Assembly: GCA_964016885.1 (NCBI GenBank)
Contig: OZ024746.1
Coordinates: forward strand, 47,430,001 to 47,494,000
DNA: 64,000 bases
Direction of reading: 5' to 3'
DNA from: Eledone cirrhosa
Taxonomy: Eukaryota
In this document: positions 1,038 through 49,168 of the stretch, one piece after another
How positions within the stretch are numbered: the first letter of the stretch is position 1
Layout of the letters: every line of letters starts with the position of its first letter
Translations under genes and position numbers: made by a program
Notes under the pieces: model-generated
Database searches by the model: none
What the model saw: the letters and a program-made list of their open reading frames with translations, nothing else
Told to the model about the DNA's origin: nothing

Positions 1038-3378
1038 TTATATATTGGGTTTAAAGTTTTGGAAGGAGTGCCGGAAGCGGTGCTGGCACGACGCAGTCAC
1101 TTCCAATTTTTTATTAAGTAGGTTATGGTTTGAGAAGATTATAGTATGGATCTCTAGTAGACAGAGGTTACAGAATATATTAGGTGGTTTGTACGATGCC
1201 GCCTTACCTATCACTTCCCATTTAAGTGTATAAGATCTATTTCTAGTTTTTAGATAGTGTATGTAGCTAGATAGTGAAGTGGAGTTGACTAGACTGTGTT
1301 TTTTGAAAGAATGGAGGTGTGAATTGTATCTGGTTTTGAAGCAGTTTGAAGTAGAGCCTATATAGGTTTCAGAAGAGTTGCTAGTTATGACAGTGCATGA
1401 GTATATGATGTCCTTGATTAAGCAGTTTTTATCTAAAGGGCTGGTTCTATTAGATCTACAGTTACAATTATTTTGGATGTTAACCTGCCGGTTATTATGT
1501 TGTGTAGAAGTCTGGTTGCTAGGTATTGTATTATGGCTATGGGGGTTGTCGCTCCCAGCGTTATTGATTTCACTAGTGCTATTACTATTATTACTATTGA
1601 TATCAGGGTTTGCATATATAACGTTGTTTTGAAGGTTTACCCCCTGTCGTGTTTTAGTTTGTTGGAAGTAAGTATTAATGTTTCTTTTATTGCTACTAGC
1701 TATGTGGTATGCTATGTTAGGCGTGGTAGAGTAGGAGATTTTAATGGTGTTTTTGTTTATAAGACTATGATACTTGTGGCCAGATAGGAAGTTTTTATCC
1801 AGGAGTGAGAAGAAAGCCTTAGGTAGGTTGGTAGAGACGTTTAGATTGAAAGTGGGGGGGGTGAAAAATGTATTATTTCTTCTATTTTTGTTTTTTATGT
1901 CTGCTGAGATGCTTCCGTTTATGGTATTTTGGTGACCTCCCTGGTGTGGGTTACGTTTGTTGCCACCCTTCGTACTAGTGTGTGTGTGGTTATTATTCTT
2001 ATTATTATTTTTCCTCATGGACATATTGTGCGAAATAATGTTGTAACTATGTGTTTTTGTAGGCAGGAACTCGATCTCATTATTATGGCCTGATCTAGCT
2101 AATGCCTGATTATAATATTGTGAGTTTTTGCTAAATATGTTTTCGTCATAAGATAGATTAGAAATTCTATTGGATATTCCCTTAGAGATAGAGTTTAATA
2201 TTGATCTAGGGTGGTTAGACTTGGTATCTACGTAAAGCAGTGTTTCGTTAGGTTTATGGAATGGTGTATATATCCTAGAGTCTAGGTAGGGGGTGGCATC
2301 TAGGAAGTTAACGTTTTTAGTGTTTTTGTCTATGGTGATACTTAGGTTATAGTTTTTGAAAGTCTTGTGCAATAGTTTTCTAGTTCTTTCTATATTAAAT
2401 TTTTTATAGTCTATAAGGAGAAGTGCATCATCGCGGTACAAACCACCGTTGAGGTATGGAAGGTCCTTATGGATTTCGTTTAGTAAGTATAGGCCCACCA
2501 AATCAGTGACCTGCGCCGAGTCACTAGATCCCATGGTTATGTCGAAGTTGTTATGCGTATCCTTGCGGGTCCATAACTGGTCTTCAAAAGTGATTACGGT
2601 TTTACGGGCCGCAAGTATGACATCAATCTGGGGTCTAGTCAGGTCACTATTGTTCATGGCCATAATTAGTGCCTTATTTAATAGGTTAGGGGAAATAGAG
2701 GTGTAGTATGAATTGATATCAAATTGAATAAATGTGTTATCTTTGTTTTCCTTGATATCCTTAAACCATTCAATAAATTCACCTGTATTTCCCCATTGTT
2801 TAAGGTATATTTTGTGTTTAATCTGTGGGATGATTTTATCTAAGATTTTCTTACTGATAATGCCAATATCAGACTTGGCAGGGCAGATTAGTCTAATGCA
2901 GATTAGTCTTAGGCAGATTGCTAATGAAATCCTCCTCATGGTGCTTCAGAGAGAACCTAGGGGGGTTTGGTGTGTATGGTTATGTATGTCTCTGAAGTCC
3001 TAGTTTGGACACTATACTACGGCCTTCTATATTAATTTCTTCTAAGTTTTTCATAGTAGTTTTCTTGAAGCTCTTATGTAGTTCATTATATATAAACTTT
3101 CTATATGTATTATAATCTAGGCTGCATATGTTATTAGTTTTGTCCGCATGCACAATAATTTTACTACTTGTGTTGAATTCATTAATAGAGGAGTTAAGTT
3201 TGTTTAAGAAGGTGTTGTTTTTATTACGATGCTTTTTGTATTTAATGTTCTTAACTAGTTTTATTAGGTCATTTTCAAAGGAGTTTAGTAGTGTTGTGAG
3301 GGGGGCTTCTAAAAGTTTTAAAGCCGAAGGAGTCGAATTTGTTAGTATTATCAACTTTGTTAGATTTGTTTTTATCAT
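1038..3378 (-). pseudogene. PLE reverse transcriptase-GIY-YIG endonuclease ORF, frameshifted near 2900-2980
   Basis: Motifs seen: ADKTNN, FIQFDINSYY, MGSSDSAQVTDLVG, GGLYRDD, NFLD, YVDTKSNHP, CNCR..PL..NC, IIYSC..TYIGST..FKTRY..H, C-terminal LLNKKLE. The ORF is split into 2980-3378 and 1038-2939, with a short tandem duplication (ggcagattagtct) near the break. Confidence 0.9.
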
Positions 3379-3570
3379 AATGGAATGTCCTCCATCTCAC
3401 TATAAATATATATATCTTTTGCTGAGCTATTTATCTTACTGGTAATAAGGTAGTAATAAATTACTGACCTTCACTGTTTAGGGTTTAAAATATACATAAC
3501 TATAAAAAGTTTTAGTATATACATAACCATAAATAGTATCCTTAATATTATATATATATATATATATATA

Positions 3571-9723: not shown

Positions 9724-10539
9724 AATAAAAATTGATTGATGTTATAAGCACTCTTTGTTTTCTCTTACTATATATACATATATATATATATAACGAAGGA
9801 GATGTGGTAAGGAACCAGGTGGACCATAACGCACCAAAGTACTCAATACTTAGGGTAGTAGAGTGGGTAATAGGAACGAGTAGGACCCCGGCGGCTGAGC
9901 TCAAGCCGTTTCGACGGCTAATTCTGGACTAAATGAAAAGTTTTATCCTGGTATATGAATAGCCGAGCTTCTCAGGGTGTAATTCCATATATGGTAAAAG
10001 TGATTGTCACAAGGATTGGTCAAAAGTTTGTTGTTGAGACACATAATTCTATCATGGCAATTTGTGGAAGGAAGGGGTAGCTGAACCTGCCAGTAGAAGA
10101 AAGAGGGAGAGGGAGTGGAAGAAACCCAGTAGTGCGTTATAGTGCCAACTACAGCAGGGCAGGAGGTCAAGCAAGTATACTAGGGAGGGGGAGAGGGAGG
10201 GGGAGGAAGTCGAAACAATAAGTAAATCAATATGGAGTAAATATATAGAAGAATACCAAGAATGTTAAAAATATAAAAAAACAATTTCTGGTTACTATTT
10301 CCTAACCACAGTCATCAAGTTTCTCACTGGTACTGCTAAGCTATAGAAAAGTTTACTAGGTGGGACGGAATTGTAGTGAGACCATTTTAAGAGTTAGTAG
10401 TAATCAACTAGTATATCTTACGGTGACAGGTCAACAAGTGGGGGGGGCCAAAATACTAAAGAAACTACCACGAAATAATAATTCAGATACCCGAAACTAA
10501 TACGAAATAATTGTTTCTACCCTAAGCACAAGGTCGCTG

Positions 10540-11935
10540 ATGGGCGAGACACTTGCGCCCATCACCGACCAGGAAAGAAACATCATCCTCCACGCCAGGA
10601 AGACAGTCCTACTTTTCGACAACTCCAAATGGATAAAGAGAGCTCCCGACTCACCTTTCGACGTCAGCATGGGCGCGACGGATTCGGCTGAGGTCACAAA
10701 TCTTATAGGATTATTCCTACTAGTTAAACTCATCGATATGTTTCCTGCATTCGGCGGTGGATTGTACCGTGATGATGGGCTCCTTACCCTTAAAGGGTAC
10801 AACCCCAGTAGTACAGACCGGGTCCGTAAACAATTAATCAGCTTCTTCCGCGACTTGGGATTTAAAATAATCCTACAAACGTCCCTGACTCGAGTAAACT
10901 TCCTGGACGTTACCCTTGACCTCGATAATTATCTGTACTACCCATACAGGAAACCCAACGACAACCTGCACTACATCCACCGCCGGTCAAACCATCCTAG
11001 GAACATCACCAATAACCTGCTTAAAAACATCTCCCTCCGCATATCTTGTTTGTCCGCTAATGAGCAGATATTCGAGGAACATGCGCCTTATTACAACCAG
11101 GCCCTCAAGCGGAGTGGCTTCCGGGAGGAAATATCCTACTGTCCAGCTTCCATTAGCGCAACCAGCAGGCGACACCGCCGCTCACGCAATGTAACATGGT
11201 TCAAACCTCCTCACAACGCCGAGGTGATAACTCCTATCGGGAAAATCTTCTTTAGGCTCATCGAAAAACACTTCCCACTACAACACCGCTACCACAACAT
11301 AATCAACAAAAATACCATCAAACTCTCCTACAGCACCACACCAAACTTTGCACAAACCATCGTCTCCTCTAACAACAAAAAAACTCAACCTCTATGGAAG
11401 AAATAACCTAAATAGCAGTTGAGAGCCGACCAGGAGGTGCAACTGTCCTGATGGATCCATTTGTCCCCTCGACAGCAGATGCAGAGATCGTAATGTGATC
11501 TACCAGTGCAACGTGAGGACGGACACCTCCAACAAAGCTTATATAGGATTAACCGCATGTGACTTCAAGACCCGGCTATACCAACACAGACATACTTTCC
11601 GAAACCCGGCCCGGCGTCACGCCACCACACTTTCGGGCCACATCTGGGACCTCAAAGATAACAATATTACCTATGATCTCACTTGGAGCTTACTGTCCAG
11701 AGCCAACTCTTACACCGGAGTACGCCGTCCGTGCAATTTATGCTCGGAGGAAACTTTACAAATGTTGTTTTCGACGGACCTAAACAAGAAAGACGAACTG
11801 GTAACTGCATGCAGACACAGATTGCGTAGGACTTACCTCGCCCACAAACCCCATAATGACCCGGGGGGGGTAGACAAGGGCTGTAACACCCCACTTGCCG
11901 ACTTTGTAATGGGTAACCCCTGCTTGCAAAGGTAG
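10540..11935 (+). pseudogene. Truncated and frameshifted PLE RT + GIY-YIG ORF
   Basis: FDVSMGATDSAEV, GGLYRDDGL, VNFLDVTLDL, YIHRRSNHP, then after a frameshift near 11400: CNCPDGSICPL, VIYQC..AYIGLT..FKTRLYQH, CNLCSEE, LNKKDE. Confidence 0.9.
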
Positions 11936-12985
11936 ACGTAAGATCTTCTTTTATATCTTTTTATCGTTTCCTCTATATTTCCTTCTTCCCCCCATCCCTT
12001 CCTAGTCCTTCCACCCCAGTCCTCCTTCTTTGTCGTCGTCCTTTTCACTTTCTCGCCCACCCGAGGCAGCCCCTTGGTCCTTTGTAGCCTCAGTACCCCC
12101 ACCCCCATCCCCTATTCTATGATAGAATTGGCCGACTCCGCTTTTTATAGCAGATGTGATAGACCCCAGATACTTGCTTCCTTATCCGATGGCTGCCCCA
12201 TTTCCGTGCTTTCTACATTTCTTAGTGGTATCTCTGCTTTAATTTCTCGTATATCAGTATTTATGGTTTTTTTTGTGGGGGGGAATTCGGAATTAATTTT
12301 CCGTATCAAATTTTTCATATACTTCGTACGAGCATTTATGTAGTTTGCACTAGAATTTTTGTATCGTAGCGGCACCCTTAGAGATAGTATTAGTATTCAT
12401 TTTCGGGATTCTGAATTATTATTTCGTATTAGTTTATTTTTTGCACTGGGTGGTTGCTGGCCTTGTGCCTAGGGTAGAAACAATCATTTCGTATTAGTTT
12501 CGGGACTCTGAATTATTATTTCGTGGTAGTTTCTTTAGTATTTTGGCCCCCCACTTGTTGACCCGTCACCGTAAGATATACTCGGTTGATTACTACTAAC
12601 TCTTAAAATGGTCTCACTACAATTCTGTCCCACCTAGTAAACTTTTTTATAGTTTTTGCAGTACCAGTGAGAGACTTGATGACTGTGGTTAGGGAATAGT
12701 AACCAGAAATTGTTTTTTTTATATTTTTAACATTCTTGGTATTGATTTACTTATTGTTTCGACTTCCTCCCCCTCCCCCTCCCTAGTATACTTGCTTGAC
12801 CTCCTGCCATGCTGTAGTTGGCACTATCAACGCACGGCTGGGTTTCCTCCACTCCCTCTCCCTCTTTCTTCTACTGGCAGGTTCAGCTACCCTTCCTTCC
12901 ACAAATTGCCATGATAGAATTATGTGTCTCAACAACAAACTTTTGACCAATCCTTGTGACAATCACTTTTACCATATATGGAATT

Positions 12986-13080
12986 ACCCCCTGAGAAGCT
13001 CGGCTATTCATATACCAGATAAAACTTTTCATTTAGTCCAGAATTAGCCGTCGAAACGGCTTGAGCTCAGCCGCCGGGGT
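12986..13080 (+). ncRNA. Atypical extended hammerhead in the PLE 2 pLTR (inverted copy at 9885-9980)
   Basis: Stem I ACCCC/GGGGU, core CUGAGAA, long stem II CGGCUA..UAGCCG, GAAA, stem III CGGC/GCCG with a palindromic UGAGCUCA loop. The triplet is GCC here but GUC in the sister copies at 6.3 and 16.2 kb. Confidence 0.6.
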
Positions 13081-13090
13081 CCTACTCGTT

Positions 13091-13143
<53 letters not shown>

Positions 13144-13712: not shown

Positions 13713-15555
13713 TTAGATGCAAAATTTTTGGAATGTTTTACATATTTTTACTGTTCCATTAATGGATCGTACTTGTTGTTTCCTAACTAGTTGTGTTCTT
13801 TCTGTTCCTGTGAAGCCTAGCTTCTCAAGATTTGTATTGAGGCAGTTACTAACATATCCCAGTGCCCCAATAATCACAGGCTTAAATCTGAAGGTGTAAT
13901 CAGGGTGGAGTATCTGCAGATTTCTCATCAGTTCTGCATAAATATTCTCCTTTTCACTAATCTTTGATATTATATTGGCATCTGCTGGGCAGCTAATTTT
14001 CACTACTGTGCATGTTTTCTTCTCCCTGTCCCATATCATAATATCTGGTCTGTTATGCCTGCATTTTATTGGGGTTTTTACTGGAACATTCCACCAGTAC
14101 TTTTTCATATTATGTACATGGATGTCTTCCACATTGTTGTAGCTTTTAATGTGTTTATTATCGGGGCTATCTTTTTTACGAACTGCATTGTACAGTGTTT
14201 TGGCCACTACATCATGCCTCATAGGTAGATAGTACTGCGATGACATCTTTGGGCAGCTGCTGATGACATGGGTGATATCCCCGATGTTAGTTCTGCAGAG
14301 TCTGCACTTGTTATCACATCTAGGTGTTTTGCCTGCATCCCTATCTCTTTTGTGAATCAGGTATTTCGTGCTAATCTCCTGTTCTTGGATTGCAAAAGCG
14401 TATCCTTCAAAGTGGGAGCCAATAGAGCGGTTGTTGGTCCAAGATAGACTACTTTCCTTATCTATATTACTCTGACTCTGGAGCTTCCTGGCAACATACC
14501 CATGCATGATTTTTTGCTGATAGGCATGCAGTTTTTCATCCATGGATTCACTGCGATACTGCTGAGCGACATCCCTGGGTGTGAGTTTTTGATTATCACA
14601 CAGGGAATATCTCTCAAGGAGTTCCTTCCCAACTCTCATGATCTTATCTGTTTCATGCAGATAGACTTGCTCGAGAAGCGGGCTCCTACACTTCGAGGTT
14701 CGTAGATGTTGTCGGAGAGATATGATGCGACATTCAAATGTTGTCTGGACTGATGTTAGGCCTCTGCTTCCCTGCTTACGTTTCAAGTAAAGGCGGTCTA
14801 TGTCACTGTTGATGTGGAAGTTTCCGGTGTTCAGTATTTTTCGAGTTCCAACATCAACTGCTCGGATTTCGTCTATCGTCCAATTGAGTATTCCAAACGT
14901 TGGTGTTAGGACAGGCACAGCAAACACATTGTGAGCCACTGTTTTGTTTTGCGCAGAGAGTTCCGATGACCAGATCTTTCTTAATCGGGTGTAGTATTCC
15001 CTGGTTACGCGTTCTTTATTACAGATACCATTATAGGATATGTTCTCATCTATCCCCAGATATCTGTAGCAGTCCTCATCAGATATCGGTGAAACAGTTA
15101 GACCATTGATGACAATGTTGCTAGATTGGGTTGTTGTTTTCCCCCGCTTTACAGTCATGTATGAGCATTTATCTTGGCCAAACTCCATTCCTATATCCTT
15201 TGAGAACGTTGTAACCCGGTCAAGATTTTTCTTCATCCCTTCCATGTTCTTGGCATAGAGTTTCAGATCGTCCACAAAGACGTTATGGGTTAGGTTCGTA
15301 TTTCTGTCCTCCTGTGAGCCAATGATGTATCCCTCACATTTCTTGAGCAGAAAGGACAAGGAGTTTAATGACAAGATGAACAATATAACAGAGAGACTGT
15401 CCCCCTCAAATATACCCCTGCAATATTTTATTTTATCAGTGAAAATAGAGTCCTCCCTCTCTGTCTTTAACCTTAGGATAGTAGCCCAGAAGAAGACAGC
15501 CTCTCTATGGCTCTGACAATAATGTCTGGGACTTTAGCAAGTTGGAGGGCCTCTA
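13713..15555 (-). mobile_element. 5'-truncated non-LTR retrotransposon with RT and restriction-like endonuclease (R4/Dong-like)
   Basis: GIFEGDSLS, FVDDLKL, YRYLG, CCHC knuckle CRLC..HVISSC, RHD, RPDIMIWD, KENIY, PVIIGALG. The 556-aa ORF spans 13713-15383 and sits in TA/TATG microsatellite. Clade assignment is from motif recall. Confidence 0.85.
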
Positions 15556-17689: not shown

Positions 17690-18205
17690 AAACAGTAACA
17701 AAGGTATTGAACATCCTAATCAGACCACCTTATGATTAAAGTAGTAGAAAAACCAGGAGCTACCATAAAATCCCAAATCAGTAGGACATACCCCTTTATG
17801 AAAAAACCCTGGACTGATAGAAATTGTATAGTCTGTAAGAAAAGCCCACAGATAAACTGTAAAACTAGAAATGTAGTCTATAGGATAAGATGTACAGAGG
17901 GATGATGCCGATACAAGACAACGACATACATAGGAGAGACAGCCTATAGTATTGAAGAAAGATTAAAGCAACACAGGCTAGAACTTAAGGAGAAGAAAAG
18001 CTCATCAGTGCTATATCAACATGTGAAACTAGAATACGAGGGCTCTGTAGATAACATAGAAATAAAGATCCTGTCCACACATAGAACTGACGCAACACTC
18101 AGACAAATTACGGGGGCTACTAACATAATAGAAGATAGTCCTAGCCTGAACAGAAAACACGACTGGAATAGTAACAACCCGCAACTTAATGTTGAAGACA
18201 GAATA
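17690..18205 (+). pseudogene. 3' fragment of a third PLE family: Cys-rich linker + GIY-YIG endonuclease
   Basis: Manual translation: IKVVEKPGATIKSQISRTYPF..CIVC..NCKTRNVVYRIRC..*C..YIGETAYSIEERLKQH..SVLYQH..RQITGA..LNRKHDW, with one in-frame TGA. Confidence 0.8.
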
Positions 18206-18292
18206 AAGACACACACACATATATATGTGTGTGTGTGTGTGTGTATGTGTGTGTGTGTGTGTGAGAGAGAGAGAGTGTGTGAGAGAGAGAGA

Positions 18293-18331
<39 letters not shown>

Positions 18332-18348
18332 CATATATATAAACATAT

Positions 18349-18422
<74 letters not shown>

Positions 18423-18524
18423 GTTTCTGAATTTGTTTAGCAAGATTCTTTATCTGAAATCGTGTGTTGAAACCGATATTGTTATACTTTGTTTCTTATT
18501 GGCAACATGGCCCTCCCAAAGTAT

Positions 18525-18560
<36 letters not shown>

Positions 18561-33168: not shown

Positions 33169-33219
<51 letters not shown>

Positions 33220-33321
33220 CGTTTTTGAAATTGTTTTGCGAGATTTCTTATCTGAAAACGTGTGTTGAAACAGATATTGTAACATGACCCGCCGAAAGTA
33301 TATATATATATATATATATAT

Positions 33322-33437
33322 AAGTTGAAAAATGAAAACGAAATTTCATTTCTCACTCTTAGTATGGCACTTACTTAAATGTAAGTATGTATGTATGTAT
33401 ACGTACATACATATATGTATACAGACGTACAGTAGCA

Positions 33438-33514
<77 letters not shown>

Positions 33515-33952
33515 GCATACAGGTACACATACATATATGCACGCATCAGTTTAGCCGACGTTTATTATAACGCCTGCTTTGTTCGTTTGTTTGTCAACAA
33601 ATCGAACAGCCTGAATTTATGCCATACGTTGTTAAGGCAACCACGTCACCTTTTTGTTCAACACTGACACAGGAAGGATGTACTAGTTTCAAGCTTGTTA
33701 GCTATCATCAGCACCGTTTACCCATCTGCCAGATAGTTGAACGTTCGAAAGTATATACTTTCCTTATGAAAATTAACGGCTGAGCAGCCTAATTTGCATA
33801 TTGAGTGAGTTAAATCGGTCAGGCATACCGAAAACGATAAGTTGAAAAAAATGAAAACGAAATTTCATTTCTCACTCTTAGTATGGCACTTACTTAAATG
33901 TAAGTATGTATGTATACGTACATACATATATGTATACAGACGTACAGTAGCA

Positions 33953-34042
<90 letters not shown>

Positions 34043-34530
34043 TATACACATATGCATACAGGTACACATACATATATGCACGCATCAGTTTAGCCGACGT
34101 TTATTATAACGCCTGCTTTGTTCGTTTGTTTGTCAACAAATCGAACAGCCTGAATTTATGCCATACGGTGTTAAGAGTGAGAAATGAAATTTCGTTTTCA
34201 TTTTTTTTCAACTTATCGTTTTCGGTATGCCTGACCGATTTAACTCACTCAATATGCAAATTAGGCTGCTCAGCCGTTAATTTTCATAAGGAAAGTATAT
34301 ACTTTCGAACGTTCAACTATCTGGCAGATGGGTAAACGGTGCTGATGATAGCTAACAAGCTTGAAACTAGTACATCGTTCCTGTGTCAGTGTTGAACAAA
34401 AAGGTGACGTGGTTGCCTTAAAACCGTATGGCATAAATTCAGGCTGTTCGATTTGTTGACGAACAAAGCAGGCGTTATAATAAACGTCGGCTAAACTGAT
34501 GCGTGCATATATGTATGTGTACCTGTATGC

Positions 34531-34571
<41 letters not shown>

Positions 34572-35020
34572 TGCTACTGTACGTCTGTATACATATATGT
34601 ATGTACGTATACATACATACTTACATTTAAGTAAGTGCCATACTAAGAGTGAGAAATGAAATTTCGCTTTCATTTTTTTCAACTTATCGTTTTCGGTATG
34701 CCTGACCGATTTAACTCACTCAATATGCAAATTAGGCTGCTCAGCCGTTAATTTTCATAAGGAAAGTATATACTTTCGAACGTTCAACTATCTGGCAGAT
34801 GGGTAAACGGTGCTGATGATAACTAACAAGCTTGAAACTAGTACATCGTTCCTGTGTCAGTGTTGAACAAAAAGGTGACGTGGTTGCCTTAACACCGTAT
34901 GGCATAAATTCAGGCTGTTCGATTTGTTGACGAACAAACGAACAAAGCTGGCGTTATAATAAACGTCGGCTAAACTGATGCGTGCATATATGTATGTGTA
35001 CCTGTATGCATATGTGTATA

Positions 35021-35116
<96 letters not shown>

Positions 35117-35170
35117 TGCTACTGTACGTCTGTATACATATATGTATGTACGTATACATACATACTTACA
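33322..35170 (+). mobile_element. Tandem + inverted array of a ~470-520-bp hammerhead-bearing unit with an internal (TA)n tract
   Basis: The left arm (33322-34172) is inverted relative to the right arm. HHRs lie at 33674-33718 (-), 34335-34379 (+) and 34806-34850 (+). Confidence 0.9.
34335..34379 (+). ncRNA. Type I hammerhead ribozyme
   Basis: AACGGUG-CUGAUGA-U-AGCU-aaca-AGCU-U-GAAAC-ua-GUA-CAUCGUU. Stem I is 7 bp, and stem III is the palindrome ACUAGU. Confidence 0.9.
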
Positions 35171-35189
35171 TATATATATATATATATAT

Positions 35190-37964
35190 AAATTGGAATA
35201 AATGCTCTGAAATAGCGATATATATGTGAATATAGACATAGAATATTCGAAAATATTCTGTATGTTTATAATAAACATTTTGAAGACCTAATCGCTATAG
35301 AATAGAATACGTCACGTATTACAATTAGATTCTCGATAAAAGCAAGGGAAGTAATCTACGCGTTTCATTCTTGTTAGAAATCATCAGGACTACATATCCA
35401 GTGCTTTTATCGAGAATGACACAGCTAGAGACTTATAGAATACTTAGCTGTGTACAGGAACTGGTTTGAAAGAGCGGTTGCCGGTCCGGCAGAAATTAGA
35501 AATTGGAATAAATGCTCTGAAATAGCGATATATATGTGAATATAGACATAGAATATTCGAAAATATTCTGTATGTTTATAATAAACATTTTGAAGACCTA
35601 ATCGCTATAGAATAGAATACGTCACGTATTACAATTAGATTCTCGATAAAAGCAAGGGAAGTAATCTACGCGTTTCATTCTTGTTAGAAATCATCAGGAC
35701 TACATATCCAGTGCTTTTATCGAGAATGACACAGCTAGAGACTTATAGAATACTTAGCTGTGTACAGGAACTGGTTTGAAAGAGCGGTTGCCGGTCCGGC
35801 AGAAATTAGAAATTGGAATAAATGCTCTGAAATAGCGAATTTCTGCCGGACCGGCAACCGCTCTTTCAAACCAGTTCCTGTACACAGCTAAGTATTCTAT
35901 AAGTCTCTAGCTGTGTCATTCTCGATAAAAGCACTGGATATGTAGTCCTGATGATTTCTAACAAGAATGAAACGCGTAGATTACTTCCCTTGCTTTTATC
36001 GAGAATCTAATTGTAATACGTGACGTATTCTATTCTATAGCGATTAGGTCTTCAAAATGTTTATTATAAACATACAGAATATTTTCGAATATTCTATGTC
36101 TATATTCACATATATATCGCTATTTCAGAGCATTTATTCCAATTTCTAATTTCTGCCGGACCGGCAACCGCTCTTTCAAACCAGTTCCTGTACACAGCTA
36201 AGTATTCTATAAGTCTCTAGCTGTGTCATTCTCGATAAAAGCACTGGATATGTAGTCCTGATGATTTCTAACAAGAATGAAACGCGTAGATTACTTCCCT
36301 TGCTTTTATCGAGAATCTAATTGTAATACGTGACGTATTCTATTCTATAGCGATTAGGTCTTCAAAATGTTTATTATAAACATACAGAATATTTTCGAAT
36401 ATTCTATGTCTATATTCACATATATATCGCTATTTCAGAGCATTTATTCCAATTTCTAATTTCTGCCGGACCGGCAACCGCTCTTTCAAACCAGTTCCTG
36501 TACACAGCTAAGTATTCTATAAGTCTCTAGCTGTGTCATTCTCGATAAAAGCACTGGATATGTAGTCCTGATGATTTCTAACAAGAATGAAACGCGTAGA
36601 TTACTTCCCTTGCTTTTATCGAGAATCTAATTGTAATACGTGACGTATTCTATTCTATAGCGATTAGGTCTTCAAAATGTTTATTATAAACATACAGAAT
36701 ATTTTTGAATATTCTATGTCTATATTCACATATATATCGCTATTTCAGAGCATTTATTCCAATTTCTAATTTCTGCCGGACCGGCAACCGCTCTTTCAAA
36801 CCAGTTCCTGTACACAGCTAAGTATTCTATAAGTCTCTAGCTGTGTCATTCTCGATAAAAGCACTGGATATGTAGTCCTGATGATTTCTAACAAGAATGA
36901 AACGCGTAGATTACTTCCCTTGCTTTTATCGAGAATCTAATTGTAATACGTGACGTATTCTATTCTATAGCGATTAGGTCTTCAAAATGTTTATTATAAA
37001 CATACAGAATATTTTCGAATATTCTATGTCTATATTCACATATATATCGCTATTTCAGAGCATTTATTCCAATTTCTAATTTCTGCCGGACCGGCAACCG
37101 CTCTTTCAAACCAGTTCCTGTACACAGCTAAGTATTCTATAAGTCTCTAGCTGTGTCATTCTCGATAAAAGCACTGGATATGTAGTCCTGATGATTTCTA
37201 ACAAGAATGAAACGCGTAGATTACTTCCCTTGCTTTTATCGAGAATCTAATTGTAATACGTGACGTATTCTATTCTATAGCGATTAGGTCTTCAAAATGT
37301 TTATTATAAACATACAGAATATTTTCGAATATTCTATGTCTATATTCACATATATATCGCTATTTCAGAGCATTTATTCCAATTTCTAATTTCTGCCGGA
37401 CCGGCAACCGCTCTTTCAAACCAGTTCCTGTACACAGCTAAGTATTCTATAAGTCTCTAGCTGTGTCATTCTCGATAAAAGCACTGGATATGTAGTCCTG
37501 ATGATTTCTAACAAGAATGAAACGCGTAGATTACTTCCCTTGCTTTTATCGAGAATCTAATTGTAATACGTGACGTATTCTATTCTATAGCGATTAGGTC
37601 TTCAAAATGTTTATTATAAACATACAGAATATTTTCGAATATTCTATGTCTATATTCACATATATATCGCTATTTCAGAGCATTTATTCCAATTTCTAAT
37701 TTCTGCCGGACCGGCAACCGCTCTTTCAAACCAGTTCCTGTACACAGCTAAGTATTCTATAAGTCTCTAGCTGTGTCATTCTCGATAAAAGCACTGGATA
37801 TGTAGTCCTGATGATTTCTAACAAGAATGAAACGCGTAGATTACTTCCCTTGCTTTTATCGAGAATCTAATTGTAATACGTGACGTATTCTATTCTATAG
37901 CGATTAGGTCTTCAAAATGTTTATTATAAACATACAGAATATTTTCGAATATTCTATGTCTATA

Positions 37965-37969
<5 letters not shown>
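35190..37969 (+). mobile_element. Non-LTR retrozyme-like array: 310-bp unit, ~2 inverted + ~7 direct copies, in (TA)n
   Basis: Period 310 (aattggaata at 35191, 35501, 35811), inversion junction near 35837, and one hammerhead per unit. Confidence 0.93.
35942..35984 (+). ncRNA. Type I hammerhead ribozyme (also at 36252, 36562, 36872, 37182, 37492, 37802; minus copies at 35351-35393 and 35661-35703)
   Basis: GUAGUC-CUGAUGA-U-UUCU-aaca-AGAA-U-GAAAC-gc-GUA-GAUUAC. Stem III is the palindrome ACGCGU, and stem I is extended by the 16-bp helix AUUCUCGAUAAAAGCA/UGCUUUUAUCGAGAAU. Confidence 0.92.
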
Positions 37970-38017
<48 letters not shown>

Positions 38018-38025
38018 ATAAATTA

Positions 38026-38065
<40 letters not shown>

Positions 38066-38116
38066 GAAGAGTGAAGAATAACATGGTCAACAGTACAAAA
38101 AGGGTTTTACTTACAG

Positions 38117-38218
38117 TATTAACAATTGTTTCATTGATTAGGATGTCAAAAGATTGCTAATCACTCGAAGTTGTGTCACCCAATCTTAAATACAGTATAT
38201 TCCTAATCAAATCATCAT
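38117..38218 (-). ncRNA. Hammerhead with long stem II, 5'-truncated at the core by an inversion
   Basis: (A)UGAUGA-U-UUGAUUAGGA..UCCUAAUCAA-U-GAAAC-aauu-GUU. The fold-back junction is near 38219, and the 5' arm of stem I is lost. Confidence 0.65.
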
Positions 38219-38341
38219 TCCGATGATTTGATTAGGCATATACTGTATTTATATATATATACTTTCGGCGGGTCATGTTTCAATATCTGATTCAACATAC
38301 GTTTTCAGATAAGAAATCTCGCAAAACAATTTCAAAAACGA

Positions 38342-38412
<71 letters not shown>

Positions 38413-38415
<3 letters not shown>

Positions 38416-38775
38416 AAAAAGAGATGAAATCGAAAATGCAACTGGAGTCTTATTTTTTTTTTAAATATATATATTTATTTGGTTCCTTTACCGGTTTCGC
38501 AGTTCTTCTGCTTTTCAAAAGGTGAGTTGAGATGGAGGGTCTGTGGTTTTTCTCACATCTGATGTGAGAAAAACCACAGACCCTCCATCTCAACTCACCT
38601 TTTGAAAAGCAGAAGAACTGCGAAACCGGTAACGGAACCAAATAAATATATATATATTTTTTTTAAATAAGACTCCAGTTGCATTTTCGATTTCATCTCT
38701 TTTTCTTTATACTTTCACTCGTGTAGGACACCTCGGTTATTTTTCATTTTGTAAAAAAAAACCTCACTTTCTAAT
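38413..38775 (+). mobile_element. Fold-back pLTR element with two U3-A8 hammerheads (38485-38522 minus, 38598-38635 plus)
   Basis: Near-perfect ~145-bp-arm palindrome centred near 38560. Motif CCUU-UUGAAAA-GCAG-aagaa-CUGC-GAAAC-cg-GUA-AAGG. The element ends ctttctaa(ta)n. Confidence 0.85.
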
Positions 38776-46246: not shown

Positions 46247-47807
46247 CTGGATAAAAGGAAAATATGAAAGATGTGAAAGTTTAGTCTGTATTACATAGGA
46301 AAAGAAAAGATTTACCCAAGAGGTTCTCACTAACTCATCCTATGCATTGTTGGGTCTGCTTTCACAACTTCCATCTACTGAGATTTCTCTGCACCTCTTT
46401 ATACAGTTGTCTTCTTCCATACACATCACAAATCTATACCAACATAATCTTCTCTCTGGAACACTACATCCATAAAATGACAATCTTCCTAGTGTTTGGT
46501 GATCAACATGATAAATGCACCCAGCACACTCTGTAAAGAGGTTGGTGACAGAAACAGCATCCAACTGTAGCAAACTTGCCAAAAAGAAGGGTCTGAAGGA
46601 TTCTTCACCTGTGTCAATGACATCATCCTAGTGCGATAATAAGATGCACTCAGGGGATCATGGGAACATTTTGTAAGTGAGCTGCAGGCTCCTGGAAGAG
46701 CTGCAGGCTCTCGGAAGAGTGAAAGAACAAGTGAGATGTAGGCTCCTGGCCCATCTGAGAGATCAGTAGCTTCACTGTGTACTGATTTGGTCTGTGATAA
46801 CCCACCCAACCCTTGCTAACAGGGAAAACAGACATTGAATAATGATGATGATGATGATGAAGATGAAGGGACAGTAAGCATGACTTTTGCAGTCCATCGA
46901 AGAGCAATATGATTGATATGGTTAATATTCAAATTGAACATCTGTAAGCTGACATCTGCAGAAACATCATTAAAGGTTGAAATTCTAACAAAAATTTACT
47001 GCCATTATTTTTTAATTATCAAAATAATCAACTGTTTGAACAATTTAGTGAAATAACTAACTTTTAATTTAAAAGACAAATATTCAACTACTGAAATATA
47101 TTATCTGGTATGTAATACTAAGATAGTCCACTTTAACAGAGGCAGCTTTTGGTGGGTTGGTATTTAAACCGGCTGTATCTGGCCAGAATTCTCCCACCTA
47201 TTTCTGTTCAAACCAGCCATAACTGGCTGCTCATACTGATATTAAGGTATTTCCAGAGAGACCTGCCTATATGCAAATTGTAAATGATATATAATAAATA
47301 GAATCGTTAGTTTATATATAATAAATAATATAATATATACTATATATAAATATATATTATATATTTTTATTTTACTATATTTATATATAATATGTATCAT
47401 TTGATATCTAACATACTATTATATCATCTCTACCATCCCCTTATGCTGCAGTGACCCCTAGACATTCTCAACGCGCCCTGAGGAACGGTAGCACCCACTT
47501 TGTGAACCTTTGCACAATACATAGCTATACATACACTGAACATTGCTATCTTGTTAGTACTTTATCATATTTTATATCATGGGTAGTTTACTGCAGCAAC
47601 TAAATATTTAGAATGCTGAAGTTAAATATCAGATATGTAAACGATATTGTAACTTTTCGCAATATCAATCTCCATTCACAGACAGTTTTTGCAATATCCA
47701 CACCTACATGAGGTTTCAATTGGTCTGCTTTTTAACAGAAACTTAGTGTAGGTGTAAATATTAATATTTATATCTCCAAATATGAGGTTGACATAAAAAA
47801 AAAAATG

Positions 47808-49168
47808 CTCTCATACACAACAGTTAATCATCTGGTTAATGTCTCTCATAAGCAACTGTTTGCCATCTGGCTAACATCTCTCATACACAACAGTTAATCA
47901 TCTGGTTAATGTCTCTCATAAGCAACTGTTTGCCATCTGGTTAATGTCTCTCATAAGCAACTGTTTGCCATCTGGCTAATATCTCTCATATACAACAGTT
48001 AATCATCTGATTAATGTCTCTCATAAGCAACTGTTTGCCATCTGGCTAATATCTCTCATATACAACAGTTAATCATCTGGTTAATGTCTCTCATAAGCAA
48101 CTGTTTGCCATCTGGCTAATATCTCTCATATACAACAGTTAATCATCTGGTTAATGTCTCTCATATACAACAGTTAATCATCTGGTTAATGTCTCTCATA
48201 AGCAACTGTTTGCCATCTGGTTAACATCTCTCATATACAACTGTTAATCATCTGGTTAATGTCTCTCATAAGCAACTGTTTGCCATCTGGCTAACATCTC
48301 TCATATACAACTGTTAATCATCTGGTTCATGTCTCTCATAAGCAACTGTTTGCCATCTGGCTAACATCTCTCATACACAACAGTTAATCATCTGATAATG
48401 TCTCTCAAAAGCAACTGTTTGCCATCTGGCTAACATCTCTCATATACAACTGTTAATCATCTGGTTCATGTCTCTCATAAGCAACTGTTTGCCATCTGGC
48501 TAACATCTCTCATATACAACAGTTAATCATCTGGTTAATGTCTCTCATAAGCAACTGTTTGCCATCTGGCTAACATCTCTCATACACAACAGTTAATCAT
48601 CTGGTTAATGTCTCTCATAAGCAACTGTTTGCCATCTGGCTAACATCTCTCATATACAATAGTTAATCATCTGGTTAATGTCTCTCATAAGCAACTGTTT
48701 GCCATCTGGCTAACATCTCTCATATACAACTGTTAATCATCTGGTTAATGTCTCTCATAAGCAACTGTTTGCCATCTGGCTAACATCTCTCATATACAAC
48801 TGTTAATCATCTGGTTAATGTCTCTCATAAGCAACTGTTTACCATCTGGCTAACATCTCTCATACACAACAGTTAATCATCTGGTTAATGTCTCTCATAA
48901 GCAACTGTTTGCCATCTGGCTAACATCTCTCATATACAACAGTTAATCATCTGGTTAATGTCTCTCATAAGCAACTGTTTGCCATCTGGCTAACATCTCT
49001 CATACACAACTGTTAATCATATGGTTCATGTTTCTCATAAGCAACTGTTTGCCATCTGGCTAACATCTCTCATATACAACAGTTAATCATCTGGTTAATG
49101 TCTCTCATAAGCAACTGTTTGCCATCTGGCTAACATCTCTCATATACAACTGTTAATCATATGGTTAA
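47808..49168. repeat. Minisatellite: two 35-bp subunit types mostly alternating as a 70-bp dimer
   Basis: tctctcatayacaacwgttaatcatctggttaatg and tctctcataagcaactgtttgccatctggctaaca, about 39 subunits, in HADH intron 6. Confidence 0.95.

What the first reader, a model, noticed from the sequence alone, without database searches (positions are those of the whole stretch)
35190..37969. 310-nt retrozyme with viroid-like folding, nine near-identical copies and a PLE-style inversion
Seen: one intact type I HHR per unit, with stem I prolonged through an internal loop into a 16-bp perfect helix. Further hairpins include ACACAGCUA/UAGCUGUGU, AUGUUUA/UAAACAU, AGAAUAUU/AAUAUUCU and AUAGCGAU/AUCGCUAU. 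Copies are almost invariant, so the insertion is probably recent. Known: this matches the non-LTR retrozyme architecture that yields circRNAs in other animals. Inference: an active cephalopod retrozyme. The head-to-head inversion would also produce ~650 bp of dsRNA.
Basis: partly seen in the sequence, partly recalled or inferred. Interest (0 to 1): 0.8.

Follow-up and report, generated by a model that had tools for sequence, protein, structure and literature searches.

The report
Two-armed ribozyme arrays copied from circles
This is one of well over a thousand young insertions of a 310-base ribozyme-bearing repeat that almost all land in TA repeats as two back-to-back arrays with fixed outer ends, which likely records how jumping-gene enzymes copy a small RNA, probably a circle, into both strands of a chromosome break at once.

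Summary
Observation confirmed: nine 310-nt units (2.1 on minus, 6.9 on plus), one type I hammerhead each, one internal mismatch, TA flanks. The ribozyme has only a palindromic 2-bp helix III and a U·U at the base of helix II, so it probably needs a dimer. No RNA evidence was obtainable.

The inversion is the family rule, not a local accident. The genome holds 17,058 cores. Of 94 two-armed insertions, 92 end at one 'short' and one 'long' site about 35 nt apart (the Penelope-like 'tail'); none has two of a kind. Both arms carry the same variant in 87 of 89 insertions (18% by chance), insertions differ from each other, and inner ends ignore the ribozyme cut site. Two protein-coding Penelope-like families in this genome obey the same rule.

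Best reading: a non-LTR retrozyme moved by a Penelope-like RT/endonuclease that primes twice on one RNA, likely a circle, and rolls. Against: no partner shares sequence with it, a few insertions point to multimeric templates, and long arms also duplicate at DNA level. Known class; the insertion anatomy was not found described for retrozymes.

The parts
35190..35838 (-). Left arm: 2.09 units, ribozyme sense on minus; outer end is the 'long' (T) site, unit position 167 counted from the base after the cut
35838..37968 (+). Right arm: 6.87 units, ribozyme sense on plus; outer end is the 'short' (S) site, unit position 130
35190..35226 (-). 37-nt 'tail' (unit positions 131-167), present at this end of the insertion and absent from the other end
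   Evidence: family-wide; PLE tail described in PMC8557442 and PMC11167929
35838..35838 (.). Inner junction of the two arms, 1-nt overlap; position differs from insertion to insertion
35942..35984 (+). First type I hammerhead of the right arm (core 35948-35978, predicted cut after GUA 35978); repeated every 310 nt to 37808-37838
35357..35697 (-). Two hammerhead cores of the left arm (35697-35667 and 35387-35357)
35918..36006 (+). 16-bp perfect helix (35918-35933 with 35991-36006) extending stem I
36037..36146 (+). Conserved multi-hairpin module holding both end sites and the motif GCTATTTCAGAG; likely RT recognition element (inferred)
   Evidence: 26 predicted pairs, 5 with two-sided changes across 15 sequences
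36706..36706 (+). Only internal variant in the array (C>T, in a UUCG loop)
35169..35189 (.). Left (TA)n target
37969..38013 (.). Right (TA)n target

Best explanation
The array is one insertion of a young, high-copy non-LTR retrozyme that was likely written into a TA repeat by a Penelope-like reverse transcriptase/endonuclease, which likely primed from both cut DNA strands at two fixed sites on one RNA molecule, probably a circle, and copied it round and round. SHOWN: family size; two divergent arms; one short and one long outer end per insertion; TA targets; an 11-bp or longer target duplication at one non-TA site; variable inner junctions enriched for microhomology; the same variant in both arms; a hammerhead conserved by compensatory change in sibling families; the same anatomy in protein-coding PLEs of this genome. 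INFERRED: (1) arrays are transcribed; (2) tandem hammerheads cut as dimers, and the 310-nt monomer is ligated to a circle; (3) a PLE protein, probably a dimer, binds the hairpin module, nicks both strands of (TA)n and starts one cDNA at each site; (4) each cDNA rolls for a median of 3.4 units and stops at random; (5) the two 3' ends are joined through microhomology or short fill-in. Some insertions likely use multimeric templates or switch template, and long arms later expand at DNA level.
For: Scale: 17,058 cores genome-wide, control 0; 1,173 long and 1,110 short ends joined to TA. End rule: 62 of 62 outward-facing end pairs in the first 245 Mb of contig C1 are one short plus one long, 33 vs 29 in either order. 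Of 112 regions read, 94 were two-armed with both ends in view: 92 short+long, 2 with one end not resolved by the script, none alike; 15 looked one-armed, 2 ran off the stretch, 1 had a doubled junction. In the 10 arrays picked by the ribozyme core alone, 8 were two-armed and all 8 short+long. Single template: arms match at 6 marker sites in 87 of 89 insertions vs 18% by chance, and 103 insertions give 38 unit types; 16 of 19 substitutions private to one insertion are in both arms, e.g. 11+13, 9+9 and 8+9 passes; mean differences 0.39 within, 0.37 across arms and 3.4 between insertions, in 54 of 71 insertions. No RNA 5' end: 3 of 188 inner ends lie within 5 nt of the cut site, 6 expected. Joining: 39 of 65 junctions without inserted bases have 2 nt or more of microhomology, vs 18% by chance. 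Neither arm is systematically longer, 45 of 94. TSD at L034. PLE controls: a Neptune-like family and a very young Hydra-like family with a 784-aa frame, 15 of 15 two-armed insertions short+long, and arms of several near-identical 3.5-kb units. Ribozyme selection: among 12 family and sibling copies, 6 have C3/G8 and 6 have U3/A8, none mixed. Literature: a PLE protein cuts and extends both strands and starts at two internal sites that bound the tail (PMC11167929); circular templates were proposed in PMC4209133 and PMC7229834.
Against: No expression, cleavage or circle was shown. The ribozyme is below Rfam's threshold and weak by anatomy; 8 of 9 predicted Xenopus dimers did not cleave in vitro (bioRxiv 2026.07.22.740005). 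No autonomous partner was found: the two young PLE families examined have tails of about 60 and 80 nt and share only an 8-mer (Neptune-like) or chance-level hits (Hydra-like) with the unit. Three insertions fit a multimeric template or a switch better than one monomer circle: L059 and L224 carry a minor variant at the same distance from the outer end in both arms, and L236 starts both arms with two units of one type, then has 15 of another; L211 is also mosaic. L273, L035b and L050 show repeated variant patterns within an arm, i.e. DNA-level duplication. In vitro, PAc showed no top/bottom difference in start site and did not need ribozyme cleavage. Conservation of the core within the young family is not significant by itself: 0 of 34 fixed variants vs 5 of 136 singletons in 12 core positions. 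111 of the 112 regions come from one contig, and most were picked by an end pattern that includes TA, so the TA share (181 of 188 flanks) is inflated.
Confidence: 0.66

Rival explanations
1. Same PLE twin priming, but the template is an uncleaved linear multimeric transcript of a source array. The ribozyme and circle are incidental to transposition.
For: Mirrored unit-specific variants in L059, L224 and L236. PAc uses unprocessed RNA in vitro. The ribozyme is weak. One unit type accounts for about a quarter of insertions, so homogeneous source arrays exist.
Against: Outside L236, only 4 of 79 testable minor calls (2 variants) are mirrored. Private variants fixed in up to 24 passes on both arms need a one-unit bottleneck followed by re-amplification somewhere in the lineage. 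Inner ends show no pile-up at the cut site.
Confidence: 0.2
2. One priming event, then fold-back or self-priming makes the inverted arm (the self-priming model of PMC3846280).
For: It explains identical variants in both arms with no need for two primers on one RNA. Some junctions fall in self-complementary parts of the unit (e.g. L046, 16-nt overlap). Arm lengths correlate weakly, rho 0.24, p 0.02.
Against: It does not explain why the second arm ends at the other fixed site. Neither arm type is systematically shorter (45 of 94). Most minor variants are not mirrored. Inner positions of the two arms are unrelated.
Confidence: 0.08
3. A satellite born from a PLE terminal repeat and expanded in place by unequal crossover (the model favoured in bioRxiv 2026.07.22.740005), with later inversion.
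For: Long arms show internal duplications (L273, L035b, L050).
Against: More than a thousand dispersed insertions share two exact outer ends. Both arms are usually multi-unit and share private variants. 31 of 95 insertions have no internal difference at all. No PLE with this terminal repeat was found.
Confidence: 0.06

Closest known systems
Metazoan non-LTR retrozymes (coral, mussel, axolotl/newt satellite 2; PMC7229834)
   Same: 150-450-bp tandem unit, GC below 50%, one type I hammerhead per unit, no ORF (longest ATG frame 30 aa). The palindromic helix III resembles axolotl Amex1 and the U·U at the base of helix II resembles Amex2.
   Different: Two divergent arms with a fixed short and long end, TA targeting and single-template identity are not described in the sections read (0 hits for 'inverted' or 'tail'). 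Expression as circles is shown there and untested here.
Endonuclease-bearing Penelope-like elements and their insertions (PMC8557442; PMC11167929; PMC3846280)
   Same: Inverted 5'-truncated copy, 30-40-nt tail at one end, (TA)n bias, hammerhead, microhomology junctions, a target duplication at a non-microsatellite site.
   Different: No ORF. Both arms are multi-unit arrays of a 310-nt RNA. No sequence homology to the PLE families examined in this genome.
Retrozymes as non-autonomous PLE derivatives (bioRxiv 10.64898/2026.07.22.740005)
   Same: The PLE link for animal retrozymes.
   Different: That work rests on co-occurrence and pLTR homology in vertebrates and suggests local expansion. Here the link comes from insertion anatomy and points to arrays born as arrays; no pLTR homology was found.
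Hammerhead viroids (Avsunviroidae; recalled, with passages in PMC7761336)
   Same: Size, strong folding, double-hammerhead fold of the multimer.
   Different: Ribozyme on one polarity only, branched fold, thousands of genomic copies, no sign of infectivity or RNA-to-RNA replication.

Membership tests
Non-LTR retrozyme | Tandem 150-450-bp low-GC non-coding unit in multiple copies | tested here: met
   310 nt, about 33% GC, 17,058 cores, longest ATG frame 30 aa
Non-LTR retrozyme | Type I hammerhead in every unit | tested here: met
   9 of 9 cores intact; HH9 is the best Rfam hit but below gathering; 3-8 pair covaries in siblings
Non-LTR retrozyme | Stable self-paired monomer | tested here: met
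   z -4.4; compensatory pairs in siblings
Non-LTR retrozyme | Self-cleavage of dimers or multimers | not testable with these tools
   Double-hammerhead fold predicted only
Non-LTR retrozyme | Expressed as linear and circular monomer RNA | not testable with these tools
   No run on record as RNA was available to test it
PLE-mobilised element | Inverted 5'-truncated partner copy | tested here: met
   97 of 112 regions have arms in both orientations
PLE-mobilised element | 30-40-nt tail at one end only | tested here: met
   Ends at 130/139 vs 165/167; 92 of 94 one of each, none alike
PLE-mobilised element | AT-rich or (TA)n target; TSD where readable | tested here: met
   (sample biased to TA); TSD of 11 bp or more at L034
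PLE-mobilised element | Sequence shared with the terminal repeat of an autonomous PLE | tested here: not met
   No homology to the Neptune-like, young Hydra-like or old Hydra-like families examined; other PLE families were not surveyed
Autonomous PLE | RT + GIY-YIG ORF | tested here: not met
   No ORF in the unit
Hammerhead viroid | Ribozymes in both polarities | tested here: not met
   Hammerhead found on one polarity only
Hammerhead viroid | Autonomous RNA-to-RNA replication | not testable with these tools
   No RNA data

The most novel reading that the evidence does not exclude
Retrozymes and their autonomous Penelope-like hosts share one unrecognised integration route: a ribozyme-made RNA circle is held by an RT dimer that starts one rolling cDNA on each strand of the target, always one from each of two sites. 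A-to-I edits made on the circle are written back into the germline, so these arrays are a fossil record of circular-RNA reverse transcription and of RNA editing. Editing hints: A>G is 11 of 34 insertion-fixed variants vs 10 of 136 singletons (p 4e-4), and one UAG site changes on four backgrounds; but A>G vs T>C is only 11:7 (p 0.24), and wobble tolerance could explain it.
Probability: 0.25. Interest if true: 0.85.

Novelty: new variant of a known kind. Interest (0 to 1): 0.62.

Why it matters
How animal retrozymes get into DNA, and why PLE insertions have an inverted copy with a one-sided tail, are both stated as open in the papers read. This family gives over a thousand near-identical natural products with built-in sequence markers. 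They argue that arrays are born as arrays, from one RNA molecule primed twice, and they name the two start sites to the base. That makes the circle model directly testable, both by a genome census and in vitro with the very young intact PLEs in the same genome. Each insertion is also a long inverted repeat, a possible source of dsRNA and instability across about 0.18% of the genome.

Tried and rejected
1. The window's inner ends (139 and 170) coincide with the two start sites, which suggested collision or L1-type twin priming. It is not general: 1 of 94 has both; 5 and 8 singly vs 4.9 expected.
3. Partner hunt: degenerate core, shared motif (only older sibling retrozymes), a Hydra-like fragment next to a sibling arm (old and unrelated), Neptune-like and young Hydra-like families. 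None shares the unit's ends.
4. Expression: no RNA holder listed, which is no evidence either way. Of four runs of unknown kind, three hold one closed 340-nt contig at depth 10-15 and one holds hundreds of fragments; a closed contig cannot tell a circle from a tandem array.
5. No contig bridged the window's junction; uninformative.
6. Pfam found nothing on two Hydra-like frames and only weak RT/GIY-YIG hits on the Neptune-like frame; the clade labels are my reading of motifs against PMC8557442, not a tree.
7. The first unit-splitting script had a faulty pattern and returned nothing; redone.
8. Host group was not tested.
9. Earlier findings: none by place or by sequence.

Full report
OBSERVATION. 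The region is an array of a 310-nt unit between two (TA)n runs: 2.1 units on the minus strand (35190-35838), then 6.9 on the plus strand (35838-37968), diverging from the junction. Nine hammerhead cores are identical, and the whole array has one internal difference. Rfam finds nothing at gathering level and HH9 at 19.2 bits, E 0.055. Helix III is the palindrome ACGCGU and helix II opens with U·U; a stretch with two ribozymes folds into the double-hammerhead. This is the dimer-dependent type described for animal repeats (PMC4209133 passages; PMC7229834 results).

FAMILY. The 3.0-Gb genome has 4,587 exact cores and 17,058 with the common variants, about 5.3 Mb. At a mean of 4.5 units per arm that is roughly 1,900 insertions; strict end patterns give 1,173 and 1,110 ends. 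The core list already showed minus-then-plus arrays as the norm.

END RULE. Numbering from the base after the cut, outer ends fall at 130/139 ('short') or 165/167 ('long'). In the first 245 Mb of C1, all 62 outward-facing pairs were one of each, in either order; 75 of 199 ends were unpaired under the strict patterns. I read 40 of those: 28 were two-armed with slightly shifted ends, and 12 looked one-armed. Over all 112 regions read: 92 short+long, 2 with one end unresolved, 15 one-armed, 2 cut by the stretch edge, 1 doubled junction, none with two alike. [quoted passage not shown] One insertion outside a microsatellite has a target duplication of 11 bp or more. Inner junctions are scattered; 29 of 94 have inserted bases, and 39 of the other 65 have 2 nt or more of microhomology against 18% by chance.

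ONE TEMPLATE. Insertions differ from each other (38 types in 103), but their two arms agree in 87 of 89 at six marker sites, against 18% by chance. Sixteen of 19 substitutions private to one insertion lie in both arms. Inner ends do not pile up at the ribozyme cut (3 of 188, 6 expected), so the template shows no 5' end there. A circle explains this most simply. Against a pure monomer circle: two minor variants sit at the same distance from the outer end in both arms (L059, L224), L236 is a two-type chimera and L211 a mosaic; long arms show repeated variant patterns from later duplication.

CONTROLS IN THE SAME GENOME. A Neptune-like PLE (open frame up to 1,239 aa, hammerhead in the repeat, ~60-nt tail) and a very young Hydra-like PLE (3,531-nt unit, 784-aa frame, 80-nt tail) show the same two-armed, short+long, TA-targeted anatomy. 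All 15 two-armed Hydra-like insertions read were short+long, and one arm holds more than four units differing by 0-1 base; these were picked for having hits on both strands. Neither family is homologous to the unit, so the partner is not identified. Older sibling retrozymes (about 316-320 nt where measured, 67-78% identical) keep the anatomy, the motif between the two sites and the hairpin module with compensatory changes. Their ribozymes switch between C3/G8 and U3/A8, 6 and 6 of 12, never mixed, which indicates selection on catalysis in the lineage.

EDITING LEAD. Insertion-fixed variants are enriched for A>G over singletons (11 of 34 vs 10 of 136, p 4e-4), and 276A>G in a UAG context occurs on four backgrounds. 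The strand test alone is not significant (11:7, p 0.24). The ADAR context preference is recalled, not from a call.

WHAT IS KNOWN. Retrozymes, their circles and the proposed PLE link are in print: PMC7229834 (results and discussion read), bioRxiv 2026.07.22.740005 (introduction to discussion read), PMC7761336 (passages). Circular templates for PLE tandems were proposed in PMC4209133 (passages), and self-priming in PMC3846280 (passages). Eight library searches and word finds in the two retrozyme papers showed no description of two-armed, tailed retrozyme insertions or of arm-sharing variants. Earlier scan notes report PLE-type ends on other non-coding arrays in other genomes; these are unchecked leads.

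VERDICT. A real, young non-LTR retrozyme family. PLE-type double priming is well supported (about 0.85), a circular monomer as the main template less so, and the whole model about 0.66. The element class is known; the value lies in the insertion anatomy, which makes an open mechanism testable.

Noticed in passing
window 33320-35171: A second two-armed hammerhead family: unit about 470-530 nt with an internal TA run, three ribozymes with an ACUAGU palindrome, ends about 61 nt apart. The 310-nt array sits in the TA run at its right end.
   Followed up: partly
L318-L337 (G000 C1, C2); fragment at window 10501-13140: Very young Hydra-like PLE: 3,531-nt unit, 784-aa frame, near-identical multi-unit tandem arms, 15 of 15 two-armed insertions short+long with an 80-nt tail. 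A candidate enzyme for in vitro work, and a hint that autonomous PLEs also roll.
   Followed up: partly
L091, L280-L287; fragment at window 17906-18530: Neptune-like PLE family with frames up to 1,239 aa, an N/T-rich insert, a hammerhead-like motif in the terminal repeat and a ~60-nt tail that overlaps the ORF start.
   Followed up: partly
L135, L137, L140, L141, L147, L160: Sibling retrozymes whose hammerhead has U3/A8 in place of C3/G8 and a longer helix III; standard CUGANGA searches would miss them.
   Followed up: partly
L236 1-6901; L211: Chimeric insertions. L236 begins both arms with one unit type and switches in one arm; L211 gains 276A>G part-way along one arm.
   Followed up: partly
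L037 3099-3370: A 272-nt foreign, GC-rich filler at the inner junction, possibly captured from another RNA or DNA.
   Followed up: no
window 38413-38710: A near-perfect ~190-nt palindrome (arms 38465-38559 and 38561-38655) after a TA run; a related copy occurs in L091.
   Followed up: no
window 33216-33300 and 38063-38345: Inverted fragments resembling the Neptune-like PLE end bracket the two ribozyme arrays, suggesting nested insertion into TA runs.
   Followed up: no
window 1038-3396 and 13713-15533: A further degenerate Hydra-like PLE (minus strand) and a non-LTR RT fragment (Pfam RVT_1).
   Followed up: no
window 35979-36288 against runs X1, X3, X6: Three runs labelled as three different organisms each hold the unit as a single closed 340-nt contig at low depth; contamination, diet or sharing between species cannot be told apart.
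   Followed up: no
window 47804-49168: A 70-nt tandem repeat of 19.5 copies at 94% match.
   Followed up: no
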